A DNA stretch of 64,000 nucleotides, taken from assembly GCA_964035545.1 (NCBI GenBank), contig OZ037769.1, positions 11,004,633 to 11,068,632 on the forward strand, read 5' to 3'. Made by a program: the position numbers and the translations under genes. This document shows positions 22,002 through 45,680 of the stretch, piece by piece (the stretch's first letter is position 1; every line of letters starts with the position of its first letter). The DNA comes from Bugula neritina. Lineage: Eukaryota > Animalia > Bryozoa. A model generated the notes under the pieces. It was not told the DNA's origin. It saw nothing but the letters and a program-made list of their open reading frames with translations, and searched no databases.

Positions 22002-23833
<1,832 letters not shown>

Positions 23834-29153: not shown

Positions 29154-32100
29154 TTGCGTTCATTCCTGCATTAATTTTTGTTGCGTCAAGAAATAAAACA
29201 CTGCAAGCTAACTGCGATTTCGAGTCAGATTTAAGCACTGCCCATCTTTTGTATATTTTCTTACCTCCAATAACTGGCATTCTGCCATTATCTATTGAGG
29301 ACACAACTCCTGGGAGACCACACAAGGAGCCAGCTAGTATCTCTATAGAGGAAGTGTGGGGGGCCATGACGAGTATGGGCGCCTCTTTACTAGTAACCTG
29401 CTTGCCCTTGACTCTTTGTATAAAAAATCCACTCACATAGCCAGTAAGTAAAGCTAATCGTACTGTTAAATCTCTGAAAATGCTGAAATAATAAATTATA
29501 ATATTTAGCTGCATAAAGGACTAGGCGTATTATCAAAACTAATTGAATTTTGCTAGAAAATTTGCATTTGAGCATCAACTCGCTAAGAGCCACAGTAACC
29601 ATTAAAAATGCAAATGCTCACGTTCAAGCATTAACAAGGCATAAACAAGACGAGTTCTGTTTAGGTATTAACTCTGCCAGATAAATTATACCTAAAAGTT
29701 TGGTGAGAGTTTTGTAATAAAATATATTGAGTGCAAGTTTTTTTTGTTTTTGCGTAATCAATTTTAATGCAGTTCATAATAACTTATTAAAAGCTCAATA
29801 CTGGTTTACTGGCACTATCATGGGTGATCGATTACTTGTGTCTTGCAGCAAATTTTCTCACCATAATCATACAAAAGTTGTTCGTTAAAATTTTATGGAG
29901 GCAATTTCAATCTTCAAAGTATGTGCTGTTTAATGCAAAACAAGCTAAACTAGGCAAAACCAATCGCCAAATGTCCCACCACTTTTTTTCTATAAACATT
30001 GAGGGCATAAAACATTGTCAAGTAGGCAGAGCTTAAATTCTCGTGCTCTGAGTAGACTAATATGCTAACTGTATGATACAAAGAGCTCAAAACTTGATTC
30101 GAGAAAAGATCAACTGAAATAAAATTGAAATTAAGGAATTTCTTTAGACATTGGGTATAATGCATAACATCATATACTCTATATTTTTACTTTTAATAAA
30201 AAGTGAAAACCACCTTATTACAGGATTCACAAACAACATGATTTTTGCACATTGACAGGATAAAATATCAGTAGTAGTAGGTGGATGGTCCTAGGACAAC
30301 CCTTCCCCCGTCGAGTCTTCGACTCTCCGGTGTCAGGGATTGTCCCAGGACGCATCCACCTACTACTACTCTATTAATGTTTTTATTAAGTTTTAAAAAT
30401 TGTACGTTTTAGGACAGTTTATTATTTTATTGTCCTAGAATTGTATGTTTTTAGGTTGGTTTATTATTTTATTACTGTTAATTTAGAATAAAAAAAAAAA
30501 GCAATTACTCATTAATACTATTATAATAAAGTTTAAAATATACGTAATGAAAAGGTAATGCCGTATCAGTTATTTCGCTAGCGGGAGTATCAGTTAAAAT
30601 TACGTCATTGGGTTTATGACTCGGATAATCACTCGAAAGAGCTATTGTAAATGAAAAATTATTATTAGCGTTAATAATTTTATTAATATTTATTTTACTA
30701 TACGGAACATTATGTTCAGCACCGCTTATATCATAAAATAAATTTTCTTTAGATTCATCAAATGGGTTTACGCTATTACGAATATGTAAACCTATTTTTT
30801 TATCAGTCCAATATAACGCTTTTGTTTTATTTTTAGTATAATGTTCACCATAAAATTGTATTAACGCGTGCGTTATTTTTATAGGTTTATTTACTAAATA
30901 ATCGTTAATTAAATCTACCGTAAAACTATTAATATTTTCGTAATAATAAAATTTATTATTATTTATAATACCCGAAATAAACGCTTTATTAGTCGTTATA
31001 TCGACTTTATTAAATTTATAAATATTCATTTATAATTATAATAAAGTTTTATTAATACGTAATGAAAAGGTAATGCCGCATTGGTTATTTCACTAGCGGG
31101 AGTATCGGTTAAAATAACATTACTAGGTTTATGACTAGGATAAGTTTTTGATAATATTATTGATAGTGAAAAGTTTTTATTAGCTTCAATAATTTTATTA
31201 ACGTTTATTTCGCTAAACGGAACATTATGTTCAGCACCGCTTATATCATAAGAAAAAAAAATATTTTCAGCGACGTCACTATACTTAAATGTGTTAGCGC
31301 TATTTCTAATTTCTAAGTTTAATCGTTTATCAGTCCAATAAAGTTCTTTAGTATTATGAGCTTGTTCACCGTAAAAATGTACTAATATATTTGTTATTTC
31401 AATCGGTTCATCGACTAAAAAATCTCTAATTAATATTCCTTCAAAATAATCATCTCTAATATTTTTTATAAAATATGACGGAATTATAATATTCGTAATA
31501 TACGGTTTTTCATTTATTATATTGGCTTTAGCCGAATTTCCAAAAATATATACCGAATTCATTTATAGTTATAATAAAGTTTTACTAATACGTAATGAAA
31601 AGGTAATGCCGCATCAGTTATTTCGCTAGCGGGAGTGTCGATTAAAATTACGTCACTAGGTTTATGACTAGGATAATTTTTTGATAATGACATTGTTAAT
31701 TTAAAGTTTTTATTAGCTTTAATAATTTTATTAGCGTTTATTTCGCTAAACGGAAGATTGTGTTCATTACCGCTTATATTATAAAAAGTATTTTCATTGG
31801 ATGGATTAAATAATTCAGTACTATTTCTAATATGTAAGCCTATTCGCTTATCAGTCCAATAAAGTTTTTTAGTATTATGAGCTTGCTCACCGTAAAATTG
31901 TATTAATATATCCGTTATTTCAATTGGTTCATCGACTAAAAAATCTTTAATTAATGTAGTAGTAAATCCTCCTAAATAATACGTAAATTCTGACGGAATT
32001 ATAATATTCGTAATATACGGTTGTTCATTTATTATATTAGCTGAATTTCCAAAAATATATACCGAAGTCATTTATATAAGTAATTTATTTATAATTAATT

Positions 32101-35100
32101 GAGGTGACTCGCGTTTAAACATTTCTTTAAGCCAGTATAAACACAAGTGTCCGCATATAACCGTACCGAATTTTTGTACTCGTTCCGTGTTATAAAATAT
32201 AGGCGGTTTTAAATATTTCATTATTTCTAGCGGAGGATGTAATCCGAAACTATCGAAATAATATTTTTTATTTCCGTTTTTATACCAAGCTACCCAATGA
32301 GTACCGTTACCCATTAAATCGTCTAAATTTAATATACCACACTCTTTTTTACGCGGCTTATCGGGTAAATCGTTTCTTGAGAATACTCCTCTAAAAAATG
32401 GTATTTTTAATTTTTTAATCGCAAACTCTAATTCAATATTTGAGAGAGCTTTATTTTGTAATTTTATATTTTTTATTTTAATCATTTATATAACCGTAAG
32501 GGACTGTCATTATACCGTTTTTTAATATAATTCTTTTATCGTCTTCGGATGATAATGCCACTTTATTTATAGTCTCGGCATACATCGTATGCTTATGACT
32601 TCTTAACACGTTCATCGTTCTAAATTGATTTCGCCGCGTTAATAAACACTCTTTATAATCATCAAATGTTATGCGATTATCACGAGTTGTTTTATTAATA
32701 CCCTTACATTTTTTCTCTTCTATATCATCCATTTTGTAAGAATATAATTTAGCTCTTAGGCCTATAAATTCTGTAATTTGCTTGCCACCGGCTTCATCCT
32801 TAAACTTTCCTATTACTTTTTTATTTTTACCGGTTGGTATACCCGATTTATGATTTTTTGGATAATTACTCGTGTCAAATTTATTTTCGATATCCGGTAA
32901 TATATCTTTATAAAAATCTTTAGTTTGCACGTGATACATTAAGCTATCTGTATCCGTAAACAGTAACTGAGCTTTATTACCGTATTTAAGTCTAATATAC
33001 TCGTAATGAAAGTCGTACATTAGAGTTTTACTAATGTCTAATATAGCCGCACCTAAATATATAGGCTTGTCAAATTTTAATTTTACTACATTCATATGAA
33101 CGGCTATTAAATTTTTAGAAAATATAGTGAAGTTTTTAAAGTTAGGCTGATTAGTTAATTTTTTAGCTTCGCTTTCGCTAGTAATTAACTTAATGTTAAC
33201 TCTATTTCGTATATTTTCCATCGTTTTACCAAACACGGAATTATTCATTAGCTTAAAAAAATCTTTTTCAAAATCACTCTTAGCTAAAGTTCTTAGTTCG
33301 GTATTTAATTTTATATATTTTTCTAACTTATTCGATTCATTAAAGGTTATACCTCTATGAATCTTCGTTAATTTTAAGCCGTACATAAGACATTGTTCCA
33401 ACGCTTTATAGTGTATAACGTAATTCTTTTTATTATTTAAGTTTGGCACCAACTTTTCTACTTTGTTAATTATTATTCTTTCGGGGCAAAACGGATAATC
33501 TTTATGCGTGTCGTGTAACTTCTTAGAATATTCTAAATCTACTTCCAAAAAGCTAGGCGGAAAGTTTAAACTTTTTTCTAACTTACGGCATTCTCTTTCG
33601 CTTAGCCACTTAAAGTTACTTACGGGTAAATTTTTAGACATGGCCCATCCATATAAATTATTAGCATCTAAATACGTAATATAACTACTAGGCTCTTTGG
33701 GATTATAATTAGTCATATATTCATTATTAGCTCGAGCGTATCTATGACTAATCATACTTACTCCCCCTCTAATTCCTTTTTCAAAGAAGAGTAATTGCTC
33801 AATGTTAGTAATTGGATCCAACTCTAATTCCGTAGTTTTGAGCATAGCGTCCCAACTTAAACCCGGTGCCGTATAGTACCAAGCCGGATCTAATTTATAA
33901 TATTCGAGGCATACGTCTCTAAAGTTTTCAAAAACGTCAGCTAATTGAATTACGTCGACTTCCATATACAAGTCGTGATATTCTCTAAACGTTTTCATAT
34001 TAAACTCTCGCCAAACGTTTTGAGCGTGTTCGTAATCCTCATCGCTTATATTACTTTCAGTTAAACTCGAGTAAAACTTTTCTTTTGGTGGTAAAGACGT
34101 TTCATCCAACACGCTTACGTTATTGAAATAGTCGTACGGAAATACTCCTTTTCTTAACAATAAGCTTAATTTATTTTCATTATTAAAATGTTGTTGTAAG
34201 TATTTAAAGTCATTACGTTTTAAATTCGCTACTAAGCTCGCTAAACTAGAACTCATAAATTTATACGAGTCTAAAAAGCGAATTTCACGCGTAACTTTAA
34301 CTTTTTTACCTTCATTATTAGTAAATTCGTCTACTATTATTTTTTCATTAAACGATATATATTTTTCTTCAGTGTTGGGTATACACGAAATTTCACCGCT
34401 TAAATTTTTAACGAATAAGTGAGCGTCGTAACCCGACAAGTTATGAATAAATACCGGATAAAATTTTGGAATTTTATAATTTAAATTACAATTATTATGA
34501 GCCGCTCCTCTATAGTTTCCGGTTAAGTGGCAGTGATCTCTCACTCTGTCATTACCCAATTTTTCTTCGCATATATAACAATTTTCGGCTAATTCGAAAG
34601 ACTTTTGTTCGCTAGCCGAAATTTCCATTGATTTAGGAAACTTATGTTTTTTATACAAGTTTTTAATGTCGAGTTCTAATAATCTCATAAATAGTTCACC
34701 AATATTTTCGTCTTCGTATTGCTTAGTATAACTTCTGTACTCGCACTCGCCGGTAACGCTCACGATATAATATCCGAAACCCGACGGTTCGTGTTGCTGA
34801 TATTGGTTAGTATAGCTTTTCTGAAAATTAGGCTGACAACTTTGTATAGGCTTAGTAAAACATTCAAAGTCCGCGTATACCACAAACGGTACTCTCATAC
34901 TACGGCAATGGTGACTAGACTGAAATTTTATTTTATTTTCTATTTTCGGAAAGACCGTAGTTACGCCTTCGTTCGTTAAACACCAATCTTGATGCTTTTT
35001 TAAAGATTCGTTAGATCGAAACGAATTCATACAATTTACGCAAATATGTTTAGCGCTAACGCGTTTATTTATTTGCGAACCGAGTAATTTATTTAAATTT

Positions 35101-38100
35101 TTAATATAAGCGTAATGACTCTTTTTGTCGTCGCTTATATAAAATAAATTTATAATTTTACCCTGATTTTTAGTTTTTTTCCATAAATTTATTGTTTTAC
35201 CGTCCCACGTAAATACATTAATTCCAAAATCGGAATTAACCTCTTCAAAAGCGTCAATAGATTTTTTAGTAGCGGGAAATTCAACGCCTTCCCACGAAAA
35301 TTTATTAACGTATTCTTTATAATTATTAATTCTTTCGGGATGGTTTTTAGGCGTATAAACACTCATTAAAATGGCCCACATAAAGCACTTATTATCCTCA
35401 TTTTTAGGATTTATTACGGCTTTTTTTAATTTAATTTCTTTCGGAAGATCAATCCACGATGATCCGTTAAGAGGTTGATATTTATTAATATTAATTTCCA
35501 TTTTTTTAATGGCTTTAAACATCCAGCTACTTCCTTTCGCGTTTAACGAAGCAAAATTTTCTTTTATACGTTCAATTATTTCATCGTATATTTCATTAAT
35601 ATTTGTAGACTCTAATATAGTTTCAATATTTGATGTAAATGGCATAATTTCTACAATAGTTTCTCCGGTACGTACATTAATTTTTTCCATTTCGCAATAC
35701 ATAAATATTTTAACTTTTATAGTAGGTTTCAATAATTCTATTACATTTAATTTTACTAGTTTACTAAACGAATCTATATCGTATTTGGGTAAACCTTTAA
35801 TTTCATAAGTTTGAAACCAACCATTAGCGGCTTGTTCTTTAAGTTTAGGCTGATTATATAAAGCCATAATTTTATCCTTAATTGGATTTATAATTTTTGT
35901 AATTGGCTTTATAACCCATTTTTTTATATTACGCGTAGTTTGCGTAAATATTTCTCGCATAATTTTTTTTACGGGTGTAGGTATTAACGGGGCTTGTCCT
36001 ATATTCGGAACGGGTTCGTCCATAGGCGATAATAGCCGTATAAGTTCGGCTTTTTTTAATCGAGAATATCGTTTCAATCCTCTTTCTTTAGCTAAAGCTT
36101 TTAAAGCTTTTACGGTAATTTTTGTATTGAACTCCATTTATATAATATATTCTTTAATAGTAATATCAATTTTTAATATTATTACTTATGTAAAATAAGT
36201 AATAATACTGGGCTGTTATACGTCTCTATTTTCTTCTTTTAGTTTATAAGCTTCGCGTTTTAAAATACTTTTTATATAAAAATATTTATTAATGTTAGGA
36301 ATTTGTTTTCTCGTTCTAAAATTAATTTCTTTAAGAGATATATTATTAATTACTGGTATATATAAATATTCGAGTAACGGTGTATATTTTTTTTGTTCGG
36401 TTTTAGCTATTAGTTTATCGAGTAATTCAACGGTAAGATCCATATTATAAAATAATAAAATAATAAAAATCATTTTTTTATATAAATGGATTTTCGACGA
36501 GAAAAATTAGAACTTTTAAACGATGAAATTATTAAATTAGAAAACGAATACGAGCAAAAACTTAATCGTTTTAATTGGTTATCAAAATCGTTAAAAATAA
36601 TTTCGGGATTATGCGGTACAACGAATTTAATATGCGGTGTCATTATTACGGCATTAATAAACGCTAACGTTACTAAACAAACGTTATTACCATTATCTAT
36701 AATAGTAAGTATAATGAGCGTAATTACTACTTCTATTTCTTCTCAAGATACTAAATTAATTAAATCTACGTTAATGTATTTAGATATATATACGTTTATA
36801 AAAGATTCAAAATTAGAAATTAATTCTATGTTATCAAAATTTTTAAGCGACTCTTATATAGACGAACAGGAGTATGACGCTATAACCGAAAAATATAAAA
36901 ATATTAATAGCGTAATAGTGAATAAAAAAAGCGATATAATAGTCGCTCGTAACAACGTTTGTTAATTACTTGCAAAATGCAATTAATTAAAAAAGGAAGT
37001 TCAATATAAAAATTATCCGTATATTTATATATGTTTTCTTTAACTATCATTTCGTCTTTTTTCTATTTCGTCTTCGGCGTATTTTAGTTTAGTAAAGAAT
37101 GACGGTATTCTAGCCGCCGCGTAATTCATTAAACCTACATTAAGTTCTTGAATTATTTCTTTAGTTTTGTAAATAGTTTTTATTTTTAATTTTCCATCAT
37201 TTTCTTTATAAATAATTTCTTTTTTATTATTATAAGTAATTTCTTCGAGTAATCCGCACTCATTAGTTGAATTATTCATTTCGTCTAATATATTAAAATT
37301 TTTATATATAATTCTTTCTTTAATATCACCGCCTTCGTACACTCGTTTTTCGTATTCGGAAGTTTTATATATTGTTTCGGTAATCGGGGTGCCGTCGAGG
37401 CTTTTATAAGTAATTACTGTTGACATTTATATACGTTTTCTTTAACTATAACAGCATACCTAAAAGAGGAATATTTTTAAACGGACTATTCGGACCTAAA
37501 ATTAAACCTTCGCCTTTTATATAGCTAGAACCTTGTTTTAAATATAAACCGTTACCTTTCATTAAATTAGACGACGCGACTGGTTTTAAAGTAATAGAAC
37601 CGTTTAAATTAGGTTCTACGGAACATACGCATCCGCCTTTTTTCAAATAAAGACCTTTACCTTTAATAGCTCTTTCGACTCCCGCGCTAGCGGCTCCTGA
37701 AAGTACACCCGGTATAATAGTTTTTAATAGCGTAGGTATTACTCTCGTAGCTATACCTAATAGAGCTCCTAAAAATCCTCCGCTCATTGACGCGTTAGTT
37801 TTTACTAATGACGGAGACATTTCGAGCGTTATATTTTTTTTATTCGCGTTTAACGCTTTTAAAATATTATCATTTTGCGTTTTCGTAACGACTAGTTTAT
37901 CATTTCCGCTTTCGAGAGGCAATTTAATAACGCAACCCTTACCGCTTCTATAAGCGTTCATTATTTTTTGTTTTTGCGCCTGCGGCACGTTTCCTATAAT
38001 TTCGCAGTAACCCATTTATATAATACATTAAACTTCTCTTAAATGAAATCTTATCGAGAGTTGTTCACCGCTAAGATCTAATAAATTACCTTTTTGATCG

Positions 38101-41100
38101 GTTACCGTAACGGTTAACGTCTTAATATATTTAACGTGAACGGGTAAGTATATTAAATTATGAGGTTTTTCTATTATTTTATATCCCGGACTAACGCTCG
38201 GAAAAAATGAATAAATAACGGGTTTATAAGTACCATCGATATAACTTCCATTAATACAATCAACTTGTACGTGTATAGCGTTTATATTTAAAATATTTAC
38301 TATGTTCGTAGCTTCGATATAAGGTTGATTATATATCGCCGCGTCAAAACCTAAAACGTCTCTTAGAGAATTTTCAACGTTAAAATCTATTCGATAATTT
38401 GGTTTTAATTTAAGTATAATTCTAAAAGTTACTTTATTAGCTTGTAAAGTAATACCGTTTCTATTACCCCCCTCTTTTACTATTTCGTCTTGAATAGTTT
38501 CTTCTAGTTGATCTAATTCGTACACTCCGACTGGTAACGAAACTAAATGCCACGTAGTACCACCGTCTTTAGACCATCTATAGGAATTTCTATCGGTACT
38601 AATGTTTGGAAAAGAATAAAACGTATCCAAACTAATAAGACACATTTCGTATTTTTTATTTTTATTTAATTCTATAGGCGGATTAAGTTGAGTAATTATT
38701 CTCGTTTTAGTATCGGTAACTCCTATAGTCATCGTTTGTTTAGAGGCCGTATTATCAGCAATTTCTCTTAATAATTTGTTTTCCATTTATATAACTTTTA
38801 AATTGTTTCCATCGGAACTGAGAGACATAGTTTTATCCGATAGAATTAGCGCGTAAGCTTGAGTATCAGCCGGCACGTTTTGACTAAACTGAACTCTTAA
38901 TTGAATATCGGCTACGCTACTTTTAAGAGCTTCGCTTTGCTTACTAACGTCTATTACGAACAAAGCGTAAAGATCTTTATATTCCGAAGGTAATACGTTT
39001 GAATAAGCGATTAGCTCGTTTATACCGTAATATTCTCCGCAAAACTTAGAAGCGTCTCCGTACACTCTACTAAACTTCATTTTAGCGAAATCTATATCGT
39101 AATCAACTTCGGGATACCGCTCACTGTTTAGCATCGCGTATATACTTTTAACGTTAACGTGATCGAATACGGCCGGATTAGTCGTTTGACTTTCAGTCTT
39201 ATCCGTTTGAAAACCTACAATAATATATTTAGGTTTTTCGGTATCTCCTCTAGAACCCAAACGCCACGTAAAGTTAGTAGTTTGCGGCACCGCGATACTA
39301 TCACACCATCTAGATCTATAAATTAGGGGTAGTTGCGCCTTACTCTCTATAATTTTATAGAGTTTATGCTTCATTTCAAAACTAGGCGTTACGTGAGGCA
39401 TCCACCACGATACTTTATTCAACGTTATTTTTCCCGCGTCTACGCCGTTAGCTCTATAAATAGCGTTATCGTTAGTATCGCGTACTAGCGTTAGTTGATG
39501 TTTTATACCGTATAATACTTTTTCGTAATCATCGGCGAATCCGAACAAATGTCTGAGATCCACTTTAATACTAAAAGTACCTTTAGGATCCGGCTTTTGT
39601 ATAATATAAATTTGACGCGCGTTAAAACCTAAATTAGCGGCGGCAGCGGCTGCGGTAGTATCTTTTGACCACAACTGATTAAGACCTCTCGACTTACCGT
39701 AGTCGTCGGGATAAGTTAATAAACCCATCATGGTCGAAGCGTGTCCGGGATTATTTATATATTCCAAGTCGTGTCCGTCGAGTTGATATCTAATACTTTT
39801 AAACAAATAAGCCATACCGTTATTCGTTAACGTTACTAAGTCGGCGTCGGCGTAAGCGGTTCCGTCATTTTTCGTTAAACGTCCTTCGATAATTAAATAA
39901 CTTTTACTCGGCTGAACGTACAAATCTTGTTGATTAATAACTATTCTAATTTCACTGGGAGTATTTAAATTCGTTCCCGTTACGGGTTCGTATTCGTGTA
40001 CCTGATCGCGCTCTACGCTCGTATCGAGTACAATTTTTTGTGTAATGTTCAGAGAATCCATTTATTATAGTAAAATAATTTCTTAATAAGCTATAGCTTG
40101 TCCGCTTCCTTCTAAAATATTACTTATATTATTATTGTTTAATATATTTTTAGTTTGATTAAGCTTTTGTAGTATAGCTTGACTTTTAGCGTTTAACTTT
40201 TTTTGTCTTCTTTTTTTAATCGCGTTAACAATTTTTTCACCGGCCGCGGTACCCGCTTTAGCTATAGCCTTTTTACCTAATTCTCTTACGCTGGAATTAC
40301 TAGCTATTTTAGTTACTACATTCCTAATGGTATCAAATATTCCACCACCGGCGTAGTGTTTTTGTAATCGTTGTCTTTTATCGTAAACGTACATTTATTA
40401 TACGAGAATACTTTTATAATAGTCACGAGTAATAATTTTCATTCTAAGTAATTCGTCTAATATAGACACAATTTCGTTTCGTACTCCCGTATTTCCGGCT
40501 TTAGCGCTAGAAATTAAAAGTTCGAGTCGTTCTACTAAAGCGTTAGGATCAGACGATAAATATACTACTCCATCACCGACTTGCCTTTTAGCTTTTTTAC
40601 TATCGGCGAGTTTCGCTCTCTGAGGATATAATTGTTCCCAAATAGGTCTAACAATATTTTTCCATTTTTCACTATTTTTATCTATGGGACCGTGTTTACT
40701 TTGATATATAGCGCCGCTATTATCGAGTATATTAGCGTAATTCGCTAAATCATTATCATCGTATCCTATAGGCGTTTTACGCGTTAAAAGACTTAAAAGT
40801 CCTCTAGTCGCCGGATATTCTTCGTTTTCAAAAATTATTTTACCATCGTTAAAACTTATAGGTTTCGTACCAATAACGTGTCTATTACCATCCCACTTTA
40901 CGTTATAAGCGCCGGGTTCTAAGCCAGCTAAAGCGTTTTGCGTATATTCGTCTAAATTTATAACTCCATCCGTTATAGCCGGTTGAACATTATAATTGGG
41001 TAATGTAAGCAATTGTTTTAACGCGTCAGTCGTTTGAGCTTGCGAAGTCGTTACGGGTTCAAAATATTTTTCTTGAGCTATAGCGGCATTTAATTCTCGC

Positions 41101-44100
41101 TCGCGTTCTCGTTTAAAATTTTCTTTTAATTTATTCTTTCGAGAAATAAAATCTTGTACGGTTTTATCTCTTTTTATAGGGTCGTGAATCTTTAAGTAAC
41201 TCATTTATTATATATTAATTTGTGTCTACTTTTTATGGACACAAACACATTTGTGTCTACTTTTTATGGACACAAACACATTTGTGTCCACTTTTGTGTC
41301 TACTTTTTATGGACACAAATACATTTGTGTCTACTTTTTATGGACACAAACACATTTGTGTCTACTTTTTATGGACACAAATGTGTTTGTGTCCACTTTT
41401 GTGTCTAGTGTCCACATTTGTGTCTAGTGTTCACTATAATCGTTCTAAAACGTTTAAATTTACCCAAGAGTTTTGAGAATCGGGATAACCTAACCATTTT
41501 ACTAAAGCCTTTTTACCTTTCTTTTTAATTACGCGTTCTATTCTATACATTTCTTGACTCGTCTTTTGTAATTCCTGTTCGTAAAAAGATCCTTGAATTT
41601 CTTCTCCACCCGAGTCGGTTAATTTATAAGTAGTCGGATTAGTATATAATATTTTACTTATAGTAAACACTTCCTCCGTCCATCTAACGGTATAACCTTT
41701 TTCAAACGTTCGTTTCTTACGAGGTATACGTACTCTATCACCTATAGCGAATTTAGGTTTAAAAGGCGCTGGTAAGTTTGAATATAATTTCACGCGTACT
41801 TTATTTTCATTAGAAGGATTACTAGCTTCAATCGGTGTCATTCCAATAGACGAATGTTTAGTCTCGTTATACCGTTTTACTAAATCTTTTAGTACGTCTA
41901 TATATTTATAAGTATTATTAGCCGAAAAATATTTAAACATTCGCTCTTTCATTGTTCTATTCCACCTCTCTACTACGCTAGACTTTTCTTCATTTTCCGT
42001 AGAATATAAGTCTATTAAAGACTTTACGTCTTTGTTATAAAATTCTTTTCCCTTGTCAACCCATAAATGTTGTGGCTTACGACGAGTTAAAATCGTTTTT
42101 AAAGCTAAAGCAACGGCTTTTCCGGTTTTATTTTTTAAAGGTATTATCCAACCGTATTTTGAAAACACGTCTATTACCGTTAGTAAATATTTATAACCGT
42201 TATTAAATTTAGCGAATTCAGTCATATCAACCAAGTCAGCCGCCCAAATATTATCGATACCCGATACCCAAACTCGTCTTTTACGAAATTTTTTTTGTAC
42301 GGGTTTATGTAGTTCTTCGGCTAACTCGTTCGTCCATCCCCATCCTAAGCGTTTTTTCGCTCCTATTATTGCCGAGGCGAAACGACTGTGTCGCTGTTCA
42401 GCGGGTGTAGGATTAGGTATAGCTTTCAATTCGTCTAGCATATTTTTATCGCATATTTCGTTTCTAGTCTTAGTATCTTTATTAAGCGCGTAACATACGT
42501 CGTGTCTCATGGCTATAGCGTCGTCTCGATCTACCGGTTTACTCCATTCTTTAGGAGTCGTGTCGTCATTAAGACGTTTATTTAATTTAGTACCCGGTCC
42601 TAAAAAATTATGGCCTGGATAATGCAATTCGAAGGGTAAATTATTTATTAAATTATTAGCTAAACCCGACCCAACGAATGTAGTTTTTTTACATCCGCAT
42701 TGACCGCAATTACCGTAACCCATTAGTCTATTATTTTTACTTACTCTCTTTTCGTAATTAAGAGTTTTCGTTTTAGTTTTACACTTACAACAATACATTT
42801 ATTATAATAAATGGAAAAAGAAAATCTTTCGTGGAAAAACGAAATTAATCGTAATAATAATCCTTTACTCCCTAAAAGCATAAGAGGTCTTATCGTTGGA
42901 AAGTCTGGATGCGGTAAAACTACGTTACTTTGTAACTTACTATTACAACCTAATTGGCTCGATTACGATAAACTTATGATTTACGGTAAAAGTCTTTCTC
43001 AACCCGAATATATAAATATGAGGAAGGCTTTCGAACTTAAATTAACTAAAGAAGAAATTTTAAATTTTTTTAAAAATAGTGACGCGATAATAAATTCGGG
43101 TATAAACGTAAATCGTGTTTTAAAAAATAGTAGGGGTAACGGTAATATAGACGCCGAATTTATAGAATCTAGTGACGACGTTTATGATCCTAGCGAATTA
43201 GACGTTAATAATAAAAATTTAATAATATTCGATGATTTAATGTTGGAAAAACAAAAAACTTGCGAAAGTTATTACGTAAGAGGACGACACAATAACGTCG
43301 ATTGTTTTTATTTATCGCAAAATTATTTTAAGCTGCCTAGAAATACTATTCGAGAAAACGCTAATTTTATTTGCTTATTTCCTCAAGACGGAAAAAATTT
43401 AAATCATATATATCAAGATCACGTAACCGGAGATTTAACGTTAAACGAATTTAAAAACTTTTGTTATAAAGGATGGCAAAAACCTCACGGCTTTATTACT
43501 TTAGATCTTTCTTCCTCAAAAAATAATGGGAGATATAGACACGGGTTAGACGAATTTTATATACCGTAATAAATGAGTGTTTATAAATTCGGAGGAAGCG
43601 AAAAAACAAAAATAGATACAAAAAAATTCGTTTTAATAAACGGTAGTAGTACTCTTACGGGTACATTAGATATGGGTGAAAATAAAATATCTAGAGTTAT
43701 TAATCCGGCTGACAATCAAGACGCGGCTACAAAAAAATACGTTGATGATACGAGTATGCCTAAAATACAAAACCCTATTAATCAGTTAACTATATCAACT
43801 GATGATGGACGCGTTATAGATAGTAATTTAAAAGTTGATGATGTTGTTACAAAAACTAATGTATTTAATTACGCAGTACCTCTTATACGAGACCCGAGTG
43901 AAAAATTAACCGTATCAACTAATACGGGTAATATTGTAGATAGTAGCTTAAGCGTTAGCGATATTGTTACGACTAGTAATATAAATAATTTCGCTATAAA
44001 TAAAATACAACCAGCGAATGAAAAATTAACCGTTTCGACTACTTCGGGTAATGTTGCGGATAGTAGTTTAAGCGTTAGCGATATTATTACGACTAGTAAT

Positions 44101-45680
44101 ATAAATAATTTCGCTATGAATAAAATACAACCAATAATCGGAAGTAAATTATTAATGCTTTCGAGTGATGGTAATATTGTAGAAACGAATATAAATATTT
44201 CGGATCTTATTACAATAAATAATATATCGGATTACGCTATTCCTAAATTACAGGGAGCAGTTGGTAATAAATTAATTATATCAACGAGCGATGGTAATAT
44301 AATAGAATCTACAGAATCTCAACCCACATTTCCAAGTTATAACGTTTAAACACTAAATTATTATATTCTTAACGTATAATAATTTATTATCTTATTAATA
44401 GTAACGAGTGAATGCATTCTGAAATAAAAGTTAATGTTTGTCCTAAAAACGTACAATTCTGAAACAAAACTCTATAAAATATTTTTTTATTCTAAATTAA
44501 CAGTAATAAAATAATAAACTATCCTAGAACGTACAATTCTGGGACAGTAAACTCAATAAAACAATAAACTGTCCTAAAACGTACAATTTCTAAAACTTAA
44601 TAAAAACATTAATAGAGTAGTAGTAGGTGGATGCGTCCTAGGACAATCCCTGACACCGGAGAGTCGAAGACTCGACGGGGGAAGGGTTGTCCTAGGACCA
44701 TCCACCTACTACTACTAATATCGCTATTATAAGTTTTATACATACAGCCGCCAGCCGGCCAGAGGCGTGTCTGGCTCCAAGGGAAGACCGAAGACTGCGA
44801 TACGAGCAGCAAGAGAAGTCAATGCAAAGCAGGAGAAAATAAGAGCCAATCGAATAGGTGCTATAGTCACTGCCATTATATAAAACTACAATATTTGATA
44901 TATAAATGTAAGTCTTTAATTATCTTTTCAAGTACTGCATGCATGAAAATTTGTTTTGGAAATTTCTTATACTATAATTATAGTCTATAAGTGTTTATAC
45001 TATATCATGACATAGTTTGTAGAAACAAACCTATAAAGGTATAATTAACATAGCATTCACATATATGGCAAAACTCATTGTGTAAACTGAAATGCAATTT
45101 TGCAACTACTCTGAACAGATTTGTAAATGTATTAAGCCACTTTTCTAGACAAGAAGATGAAAGTCAAATAAAAATACAAATCATTCAAGTGATTGAGCAG
45201 TCATAGCATTTAAGAAAGATTAAGGCTTATTTTGTTAGAACGAATAATTTTCGTAAAAGCATGTTCTCAGAATTAGGGTGTTTTACGAAGCATGTGAGAT
45301 TGCTGTCTGCAAATTAAAAGAGAACTCTGGTATTACAGTACTTAATTTTACAAAAATTACAAAGCTTAGAAAGAAGGTGTTACAAAAGAAAATGCCCAAA
45401 GATTTAAAATTTAAAATTAATTTTTCAACAGCAGAATATGTCTTTCTAAAAATGTTTCAAACAAATTATTATCATTAAAACACCAAAACCAGTTTTAATC
45501 AAACAGCCAAAGATACAAAAACACAAAATGAATGTAAACACTCACAACTATTCTATCCCAAAACGTTGTGTAGAGAGTATATCTAAAAGGGTGAGTATTG
45601 AGCGAGCTGTCTGACACAGAGTTATTATGTAATCCATTGCTGTCTCTTTTGTAATCCAAGTCTTCTGCTGCCTCGGCCAT
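25558..45680 (-). CDS. LPCAT-like lysophospholipid acyltransferase paralog A (~352 aa, 7 exons; Polinton in intron 2)
   Basis: Exons 45546-45680, 44746-44885, 29265-29482, 28278-28451, 26796-26889, 26063-26200, 25558-25717; TIAPIR, EAPILVMAPHTSSIE, WPQIIILPEG, FKTGAFLPGVPVQP, PVYDPSEAEKENAELYARNVR. Confidence 0.88.
27275..27487 (+). mobile_element. tRNA-derived SINE copy, full length
   Basis: GGGAGCAGCCATGGTCTAGGG...GGTTCGAGCCC...TATAAACTTGCGTGAGT. Confidence 0.85.
27853..28063 (+). mobile_element. tRNA-derived SINE copy with (TGAG)n tail
   Basis: Same family; followed by the second copy of a 19-bp direct repeat. Confidence 0.85.
29068..29155. repeat. (TG)n microsatellite
   Basis: Directly visible. 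Confidence 0.97.
30270..30496 (+). repeat. Left TIR of the Polinton; outer 101 bp form a hairpin
   Basis: Reverse complement of 44482-44716; outer 101 bp differ at one base, inner part has substitutions and a ~9-bp indel. Confidence 0.95.
30505..31029 (-). CDS. Polinton orphan paralog 3 (174 aa)
   Basis: ORF shares LYWTDK, YDISGAEHNVP, YPSHKP, DTPASEIT, LPFHYV blocks with its two neighbours. Confidence 0.85.
   Translation of the reverse strand: MNIYKFNKVDITTNKAFISGIINNNKFYYYENINSFTVDLINDYLVNKPIKITHALIQFYGEHYTKNKTKALYWTDKKIGLHIRNSVNPFDESKENLFYDISGAEHNVPYSKININKIINANNNFSFTIALSSDYPSHKPNDVILTDTPASEITDTALPFHYVYFKLYYNSINE
31026..31562 (-). CDS. Polinton orphan paralog 2 (178 aa)
   Basis: Same conserved blocks; ATGA overlaps with both neighbours. 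Confidence 0.85.
   Translation of the reverse strand: MNSVYIFGNSAKANIINEKPYITNIIIPSYFIKNIRDDYFEGILIRDFLVDEPIEITNILVHFYGEQAHNTKELYWTDKRLNLEIRNSANTFKYSDVAENIFFSYDISGAEHNVPFSEINVNKIIEANKNFSLSIILSKTYPSHKPSNVILTDTPASEITNAALPFHYVLIKLYYNYK
31559..32071 (-). CDS. Polinton orphan paralog 1 (170 aa)
   Basis: Same conserved blocks; ATG immediately follows the protease stop. Confidence 0.85.
   Translation of the reverse strand: MTSVYIFGNSANIINEQPYITNIIIPSEFTYYLGGFTTTLIKDFLVDEPIEITDILIQFYGEQAHNTKKLYWTDKRIGLHIRNSTELFNPSNENTFYNISGNEHNLPFSEINANKIIKANKNFKLTMSLSKNYPSHKPSDVILIDTPASEITDAALPFHYVLVKLYYNYK
32072..32485 (-). CDS. Adenain-like cysteine maturation protease
   Basis: GTHWVA (His), YFDSFG (Asp), VQ...ICGHLC (Gln, Cys) motifs. 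Confidence 0.93.
   Translation of the reverse strand: MIKIKNIKLQNKALSNIELEFAIKKLKIPFFRGVFSRNDLPDKPRKKECGILNLDDLMGNGTHWVAWYKNGNKKYYFDSFGLHPPLEIMKYLKPPIFYNTERVQKFGTVICGHLCLYWLKEMFKRESPQLIINKLLI
32478..36137 (-). CDS. Protein-primed family B DNA polymerase (1219 aa)
   Basis: Exo motifs YADFE, HNLSGYD, YMEVD; pol motifs YLDANNLYGWAM, KLMNNSVFGK, FTDTDSL; also Rho_N-like N-terminus, OTU-like segment, Zn finger and endonuclease VII-like insert. Confidence 0.97.
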   Translation of the reverse strand: MEFNTKITVKALKALAKERGLKRYSRLKKAELIRLLSPMDEPVPNIGQAPLIPTPVKKIMREIFTQTTRNIKKWVIKPITKIINPIKDKIMALYNQPKLKEQAANGWFQTYEIKGLPKYDIDSFSKLVKLNVIELLKPTIKVKIFMYCEMEKINVRTGETIVEIMPFTSNIETILESTNINEIYDEIIERIKENFASLNAKGSSWMFKAIKKMEININKYQPLNGSSWIDLPKEIKLKKAVINPKNEDNKCFMWAILMSVYTPKNHPERINNYKEYVNKFSWEGVEFPATKKSIDAFEEVNSDFGINVFTWDGKTINLWKKTKNQGKIINLFYISDDKKSHYAYIKNLNKLLGSQINKRVSAKHICVNCMNSFRSNESLKKHQDWCLTNEGVTTVFPKIENKIKFQSSHHCRSMRVPFVVYADFECFTKPIQSCQPNFQKSYTNQYQQHEPSGFGYYIVSVTGECEYRSYTKQYEDENIGELFMRLLELDIKNLYKKHKFPKSMEISASEQKSFELAENCYICEEKLGNDRVRDHCHLTGNYRGAAHNNCNLNYKIPKFYPVFIHNLSGYDAHLFVKNLSGEISCIPNTEEKYISFNEKIIVDEFTNNEGKKVKVTREIRFLDSYKFMSSSLASLVANLKRNDFKYLQQHFNNENKLSLLLRKGVFPYDYFNNVSVLDETSLPPKEKFYSSLTESNISDEDYEHAQNVWREFNMKTFREYHDLYMEVDVIQLADVFENFRDVCLEYYKLDPAWYYTAPGLSWDAMLKTTELELDPITNIEQLLFFEKGIRGGVSMISHRYARANNEYMTNYNPKEPSSYITYLDANNLYGWAMSKNLPVSNFKWLSERECRKLEKSLNFPPSFLEVDLEYSKKLHDTHKDYPFCPERIIINKVEKLVPNLNNKKNYVIHYKALEQCLMYGLKLTKIHRGITFNESNKLEKYIKLNTELRTLAKSDFEKDFFKLMNNSVFGKTMENIRNRVNIKLITSESEAKKLTNQPNFKNFTIFSKNLIAVHMNVVKLKFDKPIYLGAAILDISKTLMYDFHYEYIRLKYGNKAQLLFTDTDSLMYHVQTKDFYKDILPDIENKFDTSNYPKNHKSGIPTGKNKKVIGKFKDEAGGKQITEFIGLRAKLYSYKMDDIEEKKCKGINKTTRDNRITFDDYKECLLTRRNQFRTMNVLRSHKHTMYAETINKVALSSEDDKRIILKNGIMTVPYGYIND
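36216..36473 (-). CDS. Polinton hypothetical protein (85 aa, or 75 aa from the ATG at 36443)
   Basis: ORF fills a gap in the compact element; start uncertain. Confidence 0.55.
   Translation of the reverse strand: MIFIILLFYNMDLTVELLDKLIAKTEQKKYTPLLEYLYIPVINNISLKEINFRTRKQIPNINKYFYIKSILKREAYKLKEENRDV
36486..36965 (+). CDS. Polinton putative membrane protein (coiled coil + two hydrophobic helices)
   Basis: 159-aa ORF with ATAAATG start; hydrophobic LICGVIITALI and LLPLSIIVSIMSVIT. Confidence 0.75.
   Translation: MDFRREKLELLNDEIIKLENEYEQKLNRFNWLSKSLKIISGLCGTTNLICGVIITALINANVTKQTLLPLSIIVSIMSVITTSISSQDTKLIKSTLMYLDIYTFIKDSKLEINSMLSKFLSDSYIDEQEYDAITEKYKNINSVIVNKKSDIIVARNNVC
37040..37426 (-). CDS. 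Polinton hypothetical protein (128 aa)
   Basis: ORF with ATAAATG start and repeated (T/I)-I-(Y/T)-(K/Y)-like strands. Confidence 0.7.
   Translation of the reverse strand: MSTVITYKSLDGTPITETIYKTSEYEKRVYEGGDIKERIIYKNFNILDEMNNSTNECGLLEEITYNNKKEIIYKENDGKLKIKTIYKTKEIIQELNVGLMNYAAARIPSFFTKLKYAEDEIEKRRNDS
37446..38015 (-). CDS. Putative virion core protein, adenovirus pX-like, with several adenain sites
   Basis: MSGG/FLGALLGIA resembles the pX C-terminal region; IKGKG, MKGNG, IKGEG fit (M/I/L)XGX/G. Confidence 0.75.
   Translation of the reverse strand: MGYCEIIGNVPQAQKQKIMNAYRSGKGCVIKLPLESGNDKLVVTKTQNDNILKALNANKKNITLEMSPSLVKTNASMSGGFLGALLGIATRVIPTLLKTIIPGVLSGAASAGVERAIKGKGLYLKKGGCVCSVEPNLNGSITLKPVASSNLMKGNGLYLKQGSSYIKGEGLILGPNSPFKNIPLLGMLL
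38028..38786 (-). CDS. Minor capsid (penton) protein
   Basis: Size, position next to MCP and Polinton mCP-type motifs LNPPIEL, FPNIS, LPVGVYE, VLGF, CINGSY, LIYLPV, DQKGNLLDLSGE. Confidence 0.85.
   Translation of the reverse strand: MENKLLREIADNTASKQTMTIGVTDTKTRIITQLNPPIELNKNKKYEMCLISLDTFYSFPNISTDRNSYRWSKDGGTTWHLVSLPVGVYELDQLEETIQDEIVKEGGNRNGITLQANKVTFRIILKLKPNYRIDFNVENSLRDVLGFDAAIYNQPYIEATNIVNILNINAIHVQVDCINGSYIDGTYKPVIYSFFPSVSPGYKIIEKPHNLIYLPVHVKYIKTLTVTVTDQKGNLLDLSGEQLSIRFHLREV
38787..40061 (-). CDS. Major capsid protein (double jelly-roll)
   Basis: 424 aa; EIRIVINQQDLYVQPSKSYL, YLFKSIRYQL, LFGFADDYEK, EKPKYIIVGFQ, LNSERYP, LFVIDVSKQ typical of Polinton MCP. Confidence 0.9.
   Translation of the reverse strand: MDSLNITQKIVLDTSVERDQVHEYEPVTGTNLNTPSEIRIVINQQDLYVQPSKSYLIIEGRLTKNDGTAYADADLVTLTNNGMAYLFKSIRYQLDGHDLEYINNPGHASTMMGLLTYPDDYGKSRGLNQLWSKDTTAAAAAANLGFNARQIYIIQKPDPKGTFSIKVDLRHLFGFADDYEKVLYGIKHQLTLVRDTNDNAIYRANGVDAGKITLNKVSWWMPHVTPSFEMKHKLYKIIESKAQLPLIYRSRWCDSIAVPQTTNFTWRLGSRGDTEKPKYIIVGFQTDKTESQTTNPAVFDHVNVKSIYAMLNSERYPEVDYDIDFAKMKFSRVYGDASKFCGEYYGINELIAYSNVLPSEYKDLYALFVIDVSKQSEALKSSVADIQLRVQFSQNVPADTQAYALILSDKTMSLSSDGNNLKVI
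40083..40394 (-). CDS. Small basic putative core/membrane-active protein
   Basis: YAGGG followed by amphipathic IFDTIRNVVTKIAS; C-terminal LEGSG fits the adenain consensus. Confidence 0.7.
   Translation of the reverse strand: MYVYDKRQRLQKHYAGGGIFDTIRNVVTKIASNSSVRELGKKAIAKAGTAAGEKIVNAIKKRRQKKLNAKSQAILQKLNQTKNILNNNNISNILEGSGQAIAY
40398..41204 (-). CDS. Polinton hypothetical protein (268 aa), probably conserved
   Basis: N-terminal coiled coil; C-terminal YLSSDPNALVERLELL..AGNTGVRNEIVSILDEL resembles a recurring Polinton core-gene domain (recalled, not searched). Confidence 0.7.
   Translation of the reverse strand: MSYLKIHDPIKRDKTVQDFISRKNKLKENFKRERERELNAAIAQEKYFEPVTTSQAQTTDALKQLLTLPNYNVQPAITDGVINLDEYTQNALAGLEPGAYNVKWDGNRHVIGTKPISFNDGKIIFENEEYPATRGLLSLLTRKTPIGYDDNDLANYANILDNSGAIYQSKHGPIDKNSEKWKNIVRPIWEQLYPQRAKLADSKKAKRQVGDGVVYLSSDPNALVERLELLISSAKAGNTGVRNEIVSILDELLRMKIITRDYYKSILV
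41219..41433. repeat. Array of 31-bp palindromic units TTTGTGTCTACTTTTTATGGACACAAACACA inside the Polinton
   Basis: Five units plus partial copies, intergenic. Confidence 0.9.
41434..42798 (-). CDS. Retroviral-like DDE integrase fused to an N-terminal Zn ribbon and parvovirus-type PLA2, with C-terminal chromodomain
   Basis: CCKC...CGQC; HNFLGPGT...DAIAMRHDVCY; WAADLVD, WVDKGKEF, VVERWNRT; YRIERVIKK...ALVKWLGYPDSQNSWV. Confidence 0.95.
   Translation of the reverse strand: MYCCKCKTKTKTLNYEKRVSKNNRLMGYGNCGQCGCKKTTFVGSGLANNLINNLPFELHYPGHNFLGPGTKLNKRLNDDTTPKEWSKPVDRDDAIAMRHDVCYALNKDTKTRNEICDKNMLDELKAIPNPTPAEQRHSRFASAIIGAKKRLGWGWTNELAEELHKPVQKKFRKRRVWVSGIDNIWAADLVDMTEFAKFNNGYKYLLTVIDVFSKYGWIIPLKNKTGKAVALALKTILTRRKPQHLWVDKGKEFYNKDVKSLIDLYSTENEEKSSVVERWNRTMKERMFKYFSANNTYKYIDVLKDLVKRYNETKHSSIGMTPIEASNPSNENKVRVKLYSNLPAPFKPKFAIGDRVRIPRKKRTFEKGYTVRWTEEVFTISKILYTNPTTYKLTDSGGEEIQGSFYEQELQKTSQEMYRIERVIKKKGKKALVKWLGYPDSQNSWVNLNVLERL
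42811..43569 (+). CDS. A32/FtsK-like DNA packaging ATPase
   Basis: Walker A GKSGCGKT, Walker B IIFDD, RGRHNN, YLSQNYFKLP..IREN. Confidence 0.95.
   Translation: MEKENLSWKNEINRNNNPLLPKSIRGLIVGKSGCGKTTLLCNLLLQPNWLDYDKLMIYGKSLSQPEYINMRKAFELKLTKEEILNFFKNSDAIINSGINVNRVLKNSRGNGNIDAEFIESSDDVYDPSELDVNNKNLIIFDDLMLEKQKTCESYYVRGRHNNVDCFYLSQNYFKLPRNTIRENANFICLFPQDGKNLNHIYQDHVTGDLTLNEFKNFCYKGWQKPHGFITLDLSSSKNNGRYRHGLDEFYIP
43573..44349 (+). CDS. Fibre-shaft-like repeat protein (258 aa)
   Basis: LDMGENKI...DNQDAATKKYVD neck-like motif followed by ~5 repeats of 40-41 aa (KLTVSTxxGNIxDSSLSVSDI). Confidence 0.75.
   Translation: MSVYKFGGSEKTKIDTKKFVLINGSSTLTGTLDMGENKISRVINPADNQDAATKKYVDDTSMPKIQNPINQLTISTDDGRVIDSNLKVDDVVTKTNVFNYAVPLIRDPSEKLTVSTNTGNIVDSSLSVSDIVTTSNINNFAINKIQPANEKLTVSTTSGNVADSSLSVSDIITTSNINNFAMNKIQPIIGSKLLMLSSDGNIVETNINISDLITINNISDYAIPKLQGAVGNKLIISTSDGNIIESTESQPTFPSYNV
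44482..44716 (-). repeat. Right TIR of the Polinton
   Basis: Inverted copy of 30270-30496; hairpin at 44616-44716. Confidence 0.95.

What the first reader, a model, noticed from the sequence alone, without database searches (positions are those of the whole stretch)
30270..30370. Each Polinton terminus is a 101-bp hairpin with an element end on both sides
The terminus begins AGTAGTAGTAGGTGGATG and 101 bp later ends CATCCACCTACTACTACT (perfect 18-bp inverted repeat, stem extending to ~34 bp with two bulges). The 31-nt loop has two mutually exclusive mini-stems (GTCGA/TCGAC and GAGTC/GACTC). The same unit sits at 44616-44716 with one difference. The element therefore has four AGTAGT ends. Possible roles (inference): parvovirus/poxvirus-like hairpin telomeres resolved during replication, perhaps by the endonuclease VII-like domain in pPolB; self-priming in addition to protein priming; or a 101-bp unit that the integrase can move as its own mini-element. 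The standard Polinton model needs only pairing between the two TIRs.
Basis: partly seen in the sequence, partly recalled or inferred. Interest (0 to 1): 0.8.

Follow-up and report, generated by a model that had tools for sequence, protein, structure and literature searches.

The report
Fold-back hairpins at both Polinton tips
Both ends of an intact virus-like jumping gene (Polinton), most likely in an animal genome, begin with a 101-base sequence predicted to fold back exactly onto its own tip; related copies keep it, and it likely serves as an end signal during protein-primed copying rather than as a flipping parvovirus-type telomere, though no function has been tested.

Summary
A 14,447-bp intact Polinton (30270-44716, AATATC target-site duplication) starts and ends with a 101-nt interrupted palindrome whose inner arm repeats the 18-nt tip exactly (41 predicted pairs, z -9 to -11). 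The right unit is the inverted copy, one base different. Contigs of four other runs hold the unit, so it is no assembly artefact; diverged sister families keep it where the rest of the terminal repeat no longer aligns, and one mid-stem variant looks compensated. Sister contigs show no flip/flop and no solo unit, but the test is weak, and one deep contig stops exactly at the unit's inner end. The polymerase keeps its terminal-protein and OTU domains, so protein priming is likely retained; its endonuclease-VII insert is family-wide, not hairpin-specific. Best reading (0.45): a fixed-orientation fold-back end signal on displaced single strands. Terminal palindromes beside target duplications, with hairpin priming proposed, were reported in 2026 for protist virophages/PLVs, mostly without pPolB; this scan also noted Polinton end hairpins in other genomes. 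New variant of a known kind.

The parts
30264..30269 (.). Left target-site duplication AATATC
30270..30370 (+). Left terminal 101-nt interrupted palindrome (tip 1-18 / inner copy 84-101; mid-stem; GC-rich apex)
30270..30287 (+). Outer arm: true element tip with (AGT)3AG end motif
   Evidence: end motif as in PMC8097293
30305..30335 (+). GC- and CpG-rich apex with two alternative mini-stems
30353..30370 (-). Inner arm: exact inverted copy of the 18-nt tip, flush with base 1
30270..30496 (+). Left TIR (227 nt); AT-rich inner part with repeated TGTCC(C/T)AG / AATTGTAC motifs
32072..32485 (-). Adenain-like protease
   Evidence: Pfam Peptidase_C5, weak (E 0.006); 50-57% to Polinton loci
32478..36137 (-). 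Protein-primed DNA polymerase B, 1219 aa, uninterrupted
35472..35828 (-). Predicted terminal-protein domain of pPolB (LF/PAD fold; invariant G202-S203-x-W205 in the loop after helix 2)
   Evidence: criteria from PMC11071308
35088..35450 (-). Predicted vOTU protease domain (invariant C251, H341)
34482..34595 (-). Endonuclease VII-like (HNH) insert in pPolB
   Evidence: Pfam PF02945 E 1e-4; motif count
38787..40061 (-). [quoted passage not shown]
   Evidence: PF21738 E 1.6e-57
41434..42798 (-). ORF with DUF5679, PLA2-like, rve integrase and chromodomain
42811..43569 (+). A32-like packaging ATPase
44482..44716 (-). Right TIR (235 nt), 92% identical to the left over its length, 99% over the 101-nt unit
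44616..44716 (-). Right terminal 101-nt palindrome, inverted copy of the left, one difference (position 77)
44717..44722 (.). Right target-site duplication AATATC

Best explanation
The 101-nt unit is a palindromic tip shared by both ends of this Polinton and by its sister families, and it likely works as a fixed-orientation fold-back signal on the single strands that protein-primed, strand-displacing replication would release. Shown: the sequence, its register with the tips, its retention in diverged sisters. Predicted: the fold, and the terminal-protein and OTU domains of the polymerase. Inferred: the polymerase starts with its own terminal protein on the (AGT)n tip (jump-back type); as each strand is displaced its first and last 101 nt snap back at once, giving a local duplex copy of the origin that caps the end and presents the tip sequence without waiting for the far end 14 kb away; the next round starts at the tip with terminal protein, so the unit is not inverted. 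The conserved asymmetry (bulged G83, one-sided apex) would let proteins tell the real tip from the inner copy. The inner arm probably arose by copy-back to a free linear end, which explains why it stops exactly at base 1.
For: Exact register with both tips and z -9 to -11.5. Present in contigs of 4 of 4 runs laid. In run X2 at 80% likeness depth is about 1,000-2,300 over apex and inner arm but 155 or less behind 30378 and 0 behind 30390, so the unit outlasts the rest of the TIR. 10 of the 14 variant rows listed fall in the mid-stem 30336-30349; an outer-arm loose end in X2 (GCTCACTTTT before 30303) is complementary over 7 nt to the X5 depth-416 inner variant and over 5-6 of 7 to the three X2 inner variants, i.e. 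double changes at pairs 26/75, 27/74 and 30/71 (read by hand). 8 of 16 listed contig pieces run from the apex through the inner arm 6-19 nt into the interior, all in the window's orientation, with depths up to 1,188 against about 62 for one host haplotype; no strand-change joint at the tip, no loss of G83, no C put in after base 18. Terminal-protein (LF/PAD, Z 7.0-7.4) and OTU (Z 7.6) folds with invariant S203, C251, H341 in 53 of 53 aligned sequences meet the criteria of PMC11071308; AGT repeats are linked to jump-back priming in PMC8097293. A terminal-protein replicon whose 3' end can pair with an inner copy 84 nt in exists in Streptomyces (PMC5449611).
Against: No molecule was observed; the function is inference. 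A flush, paired 3'-OH next to template is a natural primer, so something would have to stop the polymerase from extending it. At equilibrium the end-to-end panhandle is far more stable (-135.7 over the 101 nt against -35.7 and -42.1), and both window TIRs share two letters at 30377/30379 where most X5 depth reads otherwise, so ordinary end-to-end matching seems to operate too. The two halves of the compensated variant lie on different contigs and the best match is across runs; copy-back conversion could give the same pattern without selection. The variant table appears to omit isolated changes near contig ends, so invariance of the apex is not shown. X5 record 13 (depth 1,040) stops exactly at 30370, as a branch into other DNA would make it. 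A relative (57% capsid identity) has only a 13-bp subterminal stem at its probable tip. In Streptomyces the tip-to-inner pairing was not the structure used for end repair.
Confidence: 0.45

Rival explanations
1. Hairpin self-priming (first reader; model D of the Halocafeteria preprint): the folded 3' end primes second-strand synthesis, giving hairpin-closed duplexes or inverted dimers that a nuclease (endonuclease-VII insert or integrase) resolves; protein priming serves only the open ends.
For: The 3'-terminal base is predicted paired with template next to it, as in an AAV ITR. The same idea is proposed for virophage/PLV palindromes. The HNH insert keeps its CxxC, DHCH and CN residues. Some parvovirus ends occur in one orientation only (PMC8242256). 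X5 record 13 ends exactly at 30370.
Against: For identical ends, rolling-hairpin copying gives flip and flop independently (PMC11575299); none seen. No HUH-Rep hit among 16 ORFs. The nuclease insert is family-wide (120 of 120) and read as a homing-type insertion in PMC11071308. The preprint ties palindromes mostly to non-pPolB replicons, whereas this polymerase keeps its priming domain.
Confidence: 0.22
2. Signal for excision, integration or packaging rather than for priming: the unit extrudes as a cruciform or single-strand hairpin that the integrase or the A32 ATPase recognises, the bulges marking strand and outer end.
For: Fixed orientation and retained bulge in sister contigs; the Halocafeteria palindromes go with particular rve integrases; parvovirus hairpins double as packaging signals.
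Against: No binding or cleavage data; hairpin substrates for rve integrases are not known to me (recalled); the probable tip of relative L154, with a 67% identical integrase core, lacks the inner arm.
Confidence: 0.18
3. By-product: a copy-back duplication of the origin that is tolerated and kept similar by occasional template switching, or two inverted double-stranded binding sites; the fold itself has no job.
For: The inner arm stops exactly at base 1, as copying to a free end would give; the mid-stem is built from the TGTCC(C/T)AG motif repeated further inside the TIR, and an 11-nt version is shared with L154; the preprint offers accidental annealing as an alternative.
Against: The unit is retained where the rest of the TIR has diverged beyond alignment, and the G83 bulge persists next to apparently compensated changes, which wholesale copy-back to the tip would erase.
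Confidence: 0.12
4. The 101-bp unit is an integrase-mobilised mini-element with two AGT ends.
For: Both ends of the unit read as element ends; one deep contig stops at 30370.
Against: No duplication flanks the unit itself (AATATC outside, CTATTA inside); 2 of 2 copies in 64 kb are at the element ends; all 6 listed loose ends behind the unit start at 30376 or later and at least three read like TIR sequence (12 of 19 loose ends shown).
Confidence: 0.03

Closest known systems
Terminal palindromes of endogenous virophages (subtypes 1, 2, 5, 6) and PLV subtype 4 of Halocafeteria seosinensis (bioRxiv 10.64898/2026.07.28.741278; section 7 and passages read)
   Same: Palindrome inside each TIR, adjacent to the target-site duplication, in an rve-integrating double-jelly-roll element; hairpin priming proposed, untested.
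   Different: There a protist host, a 52-nt palindrome in the example shown, and mostly non-pPolB replication genes; here a likely animal Polinton with an intact pPolB (terminal-protein and OTU domains), a 101-nt interrupted stem with bulges and an asymmetric apex.
Polintons/Mavericks (adintoviruses) of animals (PMC8097293, PMC8502044, PMC10748475; passages read)
   Same: Size, 6-bp duplication, (AGT)n...(ACT)n ends, TIRs, pPolB, rve integrase, ATPase, protease, capsid.
   Different: The words hairpin and palindrome do not occur in the main text of PMC8097293 or PMC10748475, and hairpin does not occur in PMC8502044; an inner copy of the end motif is not described in the passages read.
Archetypal Streptomyces telomeres (PMC5449611; passages read)
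   Same: Terminal-protein-primed linear replicon; the single-stranded 3' end is predicted to pair with an inner copy (Palindrome I with IV, within 84 nt); no inversion described in the passages read.
   Different: Bacterial, internal origin with end patching by Tap/Tpg, several short palindromes; the I-IV pairing was not the structure used in end repair.
AAV/parvovirus ITR hairpins (PMC11575299, PMC8242256; passages read)
   Same: About 100-145 nt terminal palindrome with a paired 3' end and a structured apex at both identical ends.
   Different: Single-stranded genome, HUH Rep nicking at a resolution site, flip and flop forms; no Rep hit and no flip/flop sign here, and the element encodes its own protein-primed polymerase.
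Poxvirus hairpin telomeres with resolvase (recalled; one passage in PMC11296320)
   Same: Imperfectly paired terminal hairpin; a junction-type nuclease domain is encoded.
   Different: Poxvirus ends are covalently closed, AT-rich, flip/flop; this unit is 55% GC and is integrated as an open end with a target duplication.

Membership tests
Polinton/Maverick | Protein-primed PolB plus rve integrase | tested here: met
   1219-aa PolB with YLDANNLY, KLMNNSVFGK, DTDS motifs and Polinton homologues; rve E 6e-9
Polinton/Maverick | TIRs, (AGT)n ends, 6-bp target-site duplication | tested here: met
Polinton/Maverick | Capsid, packaging ATPase, adenain protease | tested here: met
   PF21738 1.6e-57, Pox_A32 2e-8, Peptidase_C5 0.006 (weak)
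Protein-primed replicon | Terminal-protein domain with a hydroxyl residue between helix 2 and strand 4; active-site Cys/His of vOTU | tested here: met
   Model pLDDT 85.7; LF/PAD and OTU matches at middling Z 7.0-7.6; S203, C251, H341 invariant in 53 rows; covalent linkage itself not tested
Halocafeteria-type terminal palindromes | Palindrome within the TIR adjacent to the target-site duplication | tested here: met
   the paper's screen allowed a gap of at most 10 nt and 4 mismatches, which this bulged unit might not pass
Halocafeteria-type terminal palindromes | Preferential link to non-pPolB replication genes | tested here: not met
   The element's only replication gene found is pPolB
Parvovirus rolling-hairpin termini | Flip and flop orientations | tested here: inconclusive
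   No sign in contigs, but short branch contigs may not have been laid and record 13 ends at 30370
Parvovirus rolling-hairpin termini | HUH Rep initiator | tested here: not met
   No such Pfam family among 16 element ORFs at E up to 0.05; 7 of them had no hit at all
Poxvirus-type hairpin telomeres | Covalently closed ends on free DNA, resolved from concatemers | not testable with these tools
   Only contigs were available
Non-autonomous mini-element (MITE-like) | Solo copies with their own target-site duplication | tested here: inconclusive
   None in the window or among listed loose ends; no whole genome held

The most novel reading that the evidence does not exclude
This Polinton family runs a hybrid replicon: terminal-protein priming at open ends plus snap-back priming from the 101-nt hairpin, with integrase or the polymerase's HNH insert nicking at the AGT/ACT borders to free genome-length ends. 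That would join adenovirus-type and parvovirus-type end replication in one animal DNA virus and could offer a route for excision from the chromosome.
Probability: 0.2. Interest if true: 0.8.

Novelty: new variant of a known kind. Interest (0 to 1): 0.47.

Why it matters
How Polintons leave the chromosome and copy their ends has not been shown experimentally as far as the passages read go; the working model needs only pairing of the two TIRs. A conserved, asymmetric fold-back with a second copy of the end motif, in an element that still encodes terminal-protein priming, gives a short defined substrate on which priming, self-priming and integrase cutting can be compared in vitro, and extends a feature reported in 2026 for protist virophages/PLVs to animal pPolB Polintons. 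If it proves a by-product, it is still a record of copy-back at free linear ends.

Tried and rejected
No whole genome is held, so solo units and sister ends could not be searched directly. The 18-nt tip gave 1 hit in viral contigs and 38 in metagenome contigs; none continues like the unit or aligns to the TIR, so all were taken as chance. The apex 18-mer gave 0 hits in viral contigs. A generic AGTAGTAGT..ACTACTACT pattern gave 110 loci; 11 passed a stem/energy filter and only L096 had a long stem, but it ends a 4-kb contig whose 424-aa ORF looks like an RNA-phage maturation protein (my reading, not scanned), and no window Polinton protein matched it: rejected. Related Polintons L040 and L159 have TIRs cut off at the contig ends; L041, L155, L156, L160 show no TIR; L161-L165 and L167-L169 are distant (L166 not examined): uninformative. 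Rfam gave two miRNA matches far below gathering score, generic hairpin matches. Runs were held only as contigs, so free ends and strand could not be seen. An early reading that C at position 77 is the majority and that the apex is invariant (notebook) was withdrawn: every listed variant has a contig with 31 or more letters to its end, so isolated changes seem not to be listed, and records 13 and 14 (depth 1,040 and 1,188) fit a roughly even C/T split. Kapitonov and Jurka 2006 was not held; its model is cited through PMC8097293 and the Halocafeteria preprint. 10.1101/2022.05.25.493380 (protein beta-hairpins) and 10.1101/2022.07.28.501842 were irrelevant.

Full report
The element. Window 30270-44716 (14,447 bp) is an uninterrupted Polinton: 6-bp duplication AATATC on both sides, (AGT)n ends, TIRs of 227 and 235 nt that are 92% identical. 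Of 17 ORFs of 60 aa or more, 16 were scanned: capsid, A32 ATPase, rve integrase with chromodomain and PLA2-like part, a weak adenain hit, and a 1219-aa polymerase with an endonuclease-VII-like insert. The named capsid relatives at 55-58% are from a scallop and a bryozoan, and the flanks are microsatellite-rich; an animal host is inferred.

The observation. Each TIR opens with a 101-nt unit. Bases 1-18 pair exactly with 101-84; after a bulged G83 come 12 positions (one A/C mismatch on the left, none on the right), a bulged A70, four more pairs and an apex that can add 3 + 5 pairs. All four strands fold at -35.7 to -42.1 kcal/mol, z -9.4 to -11.5, 0 of 200 shuffles; neighbouring 101-mers do not. 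The unit is 55% GC against 18% for the rest of the TIR. The right unit is the inverted copy with one difference. Only the outer ends carry the target duplication. The two mini-stems exist but are unequal (0.86 against 0.13).

Sister copies. No genome is held. Five runs share words with the stretch, all kept as contigs; four were laid and two of them again on 30270-30430. X5 also covers the host flank (two contigs at depth 62, one with no difference), while element bins reach thousands, so it holds tens of copies; X1-X3 cover the element but not the flank. All four cover the unit, so it is not an artefact of this assembly. In X2 the apex and inner arm are covered at about 1,000-2,300, the TIR behind 30378 at 155 or less and behind 30390 not at all: the unit is the conserved part. 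Ten of 14 listed variant rows lie in the inner mid-stem. An X2 contig that leaves the reference before 30303 reads GCTCACTTTT there, complementary over 7 nt to the X5 depth-416 inner variant (changes at 30340, 30343, 30344) and over 5-6 of 7 to the X2 variants: double changes at three pairs. This is read by hand, the halves are on separate contigs, and with several variants to choose from it is suggestive only. The outer arm is thinly covered in X2 (127-274), so most of its outer arms were not seen.

Flip/flop and solo units. A flipped end would show as a strand-change joint, a missing G83 before CTATTA, an extra C after base 18, or host DNA straight after base 101. None is listed. Eight of the 16 pieces shown (of 92) run from the apex through the inner arm into the interior in the window's orientation, unbroken at 30370, the deepest at 1,188; they extend only 6-19 nt past the unit, short of the tool's 31-letter rule for bridging. 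All six listed loose ends behind the unit start at 30376 or later (12 of 19 shown). Against this: branch contigs of about 30-40 nt may not have been laid, the stretch began at the tip so overhangs there were hidden, and X5 record 13 (depth 1,040, identical to the left unit) stops exactly at 30370, which a change at 30371 or a branch into other DNA would both explain. The test leans against free flip/flop and abundant solo units but does not exclude them.

The enzymes. A model of polymerase residues 85-360 (53 sequences, pLDDT 85.7) matches Y-family little-finger domains over its first half (Z 7.0-7.4) and OTU proteases over its second (Z up to 7.6; Foldseek found the same families at E above 0.001). 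These Z values are middling, but the pair of folds, Ser203 in the loop after helix 2, and invariant Cys251/His341 are what PMC11071308 describes for terminal-protein and vOTU domains (passages). Protein priming is therefore likely retained. The endonuclease insert's DH[CD]H core is in 120 of 120 listed homologues and the full motif in 80 of 120, also in L040 and L154, not matched in L041; the homologues were found with residues 60-400, outside the insert. Such inserts are reported in nematode and oomycete pPolBs (PMC10748475, passages). It is not a special partner of this hairpin.

Other Polintons. Of the related loci found only L154 shows a probable tip (one end only, so unconfirmed). It starts AGTAGTAGG like the window's, has a 13-bp stem from base 10 (z -3.0 for 60 nt, -1.3 for 101 nt) and no inner AGT arm, and shares an 11-nt TIR motif. 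The full fold-back is thus probably not universal in the group.

Mechanism. At equilibrium the end-to-end panhandle beats the two hairpins (-135.7 against -77.8 over the unit), and shared private letters at both window TIRs suggest the ends are matched to each other. The hairpin can matter only kinetically or locally: on a strand being displaced, at a fork, or as a cruciform. With priming domains intact, jump-back-type AGT repeats (PMC8097293) and no sign of inversion, I favour a fixed-orientation fold-back that caps the displaced strand and presents a local duplex origin (0.45), loosely like Streptomyces telomeres (PMC5449611). Self-priming with resolution (0.22), an excision or packaging signal (0.18), a by-product of copy-back (0.12) and a mini-element (0.03) follow. 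Every functional step is inferred.

What is known. A July 2026 preprint reports palindromes in TIRs next to target duplications in Halocafeteria virophages and PLVs, proposes hairpin priming, notes they go mostly with non-pPolB replicons and calls for a global survey (section read; its supplements are closed and may list pPolB cases). Six paper searches, judged from listings and from passages of five Polinton/PLV papers, showed no such structure described for an animal pPolB Polinton; the two founding papers and Repbase entries were not seen. This scan's own notes list end hairpins at Polintons or related elements in several other genomes, unchecked here; they suggest the feature recurs and are not counted as support.

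Verdict. Real, conserved and probably functional; a new variant of a recently described kind, with the more dramatic readings untested rather than supported. Interest 0.47.

Noticed in passing
window 41187-41438: A 31-bp tandem array with both orientations of a GGACACAAA/TTTGTGTCC motif inside the Polinton, between the 268-aa ORF and the integrase ORF; it gives perfect 18-22-bp stems and its core resembles the TIR's GGACA motif.
   Followed up: partly
window 30505-32071: Three tandem paralogous ORFs (170-178 aa, 61-76% identical) next to the left TIR, without a convincing Pfam hit.
   Followed up: partly
window 41434-42798: DUF5679 and PLA2-like domains are in one frame with the integrase; in L040, L154 and L159 the matching parts come as two separate tblastn segments.
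   Followed up: no
window 30346 and 44640: The single left/right difference (C or T at unit position 77) may be an even split among close sisters (X5 records 13 and 14, depth 1,040 and 1,188); it could mark left versus right ends.
   Followed up: partly
window 5292-5339: Perfect 48-bp palindrome in host DNA, extendable with a few mismatches.
   Followed up: no
window 23079-23361: (AT)n array with inverted CCTCAACC/GGTTGAGG inserts forming a perfect 125-bp inverted repeat.
   Followed up: no
L096 1493-1598: A 4-kb viral contig that looks like an RNA phage ends in a 38-bp-stem hairpin containing AGTAGTAGT; unrelated to Polintons, possibly a library artefact.
   Followed up: partly
L154 1-11498: A Polinton joined to non-Polinton DNA inside a contig filed under a bacterial MAG, probably host contamination; L155 and L156 are similar.
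   Followed up: partly
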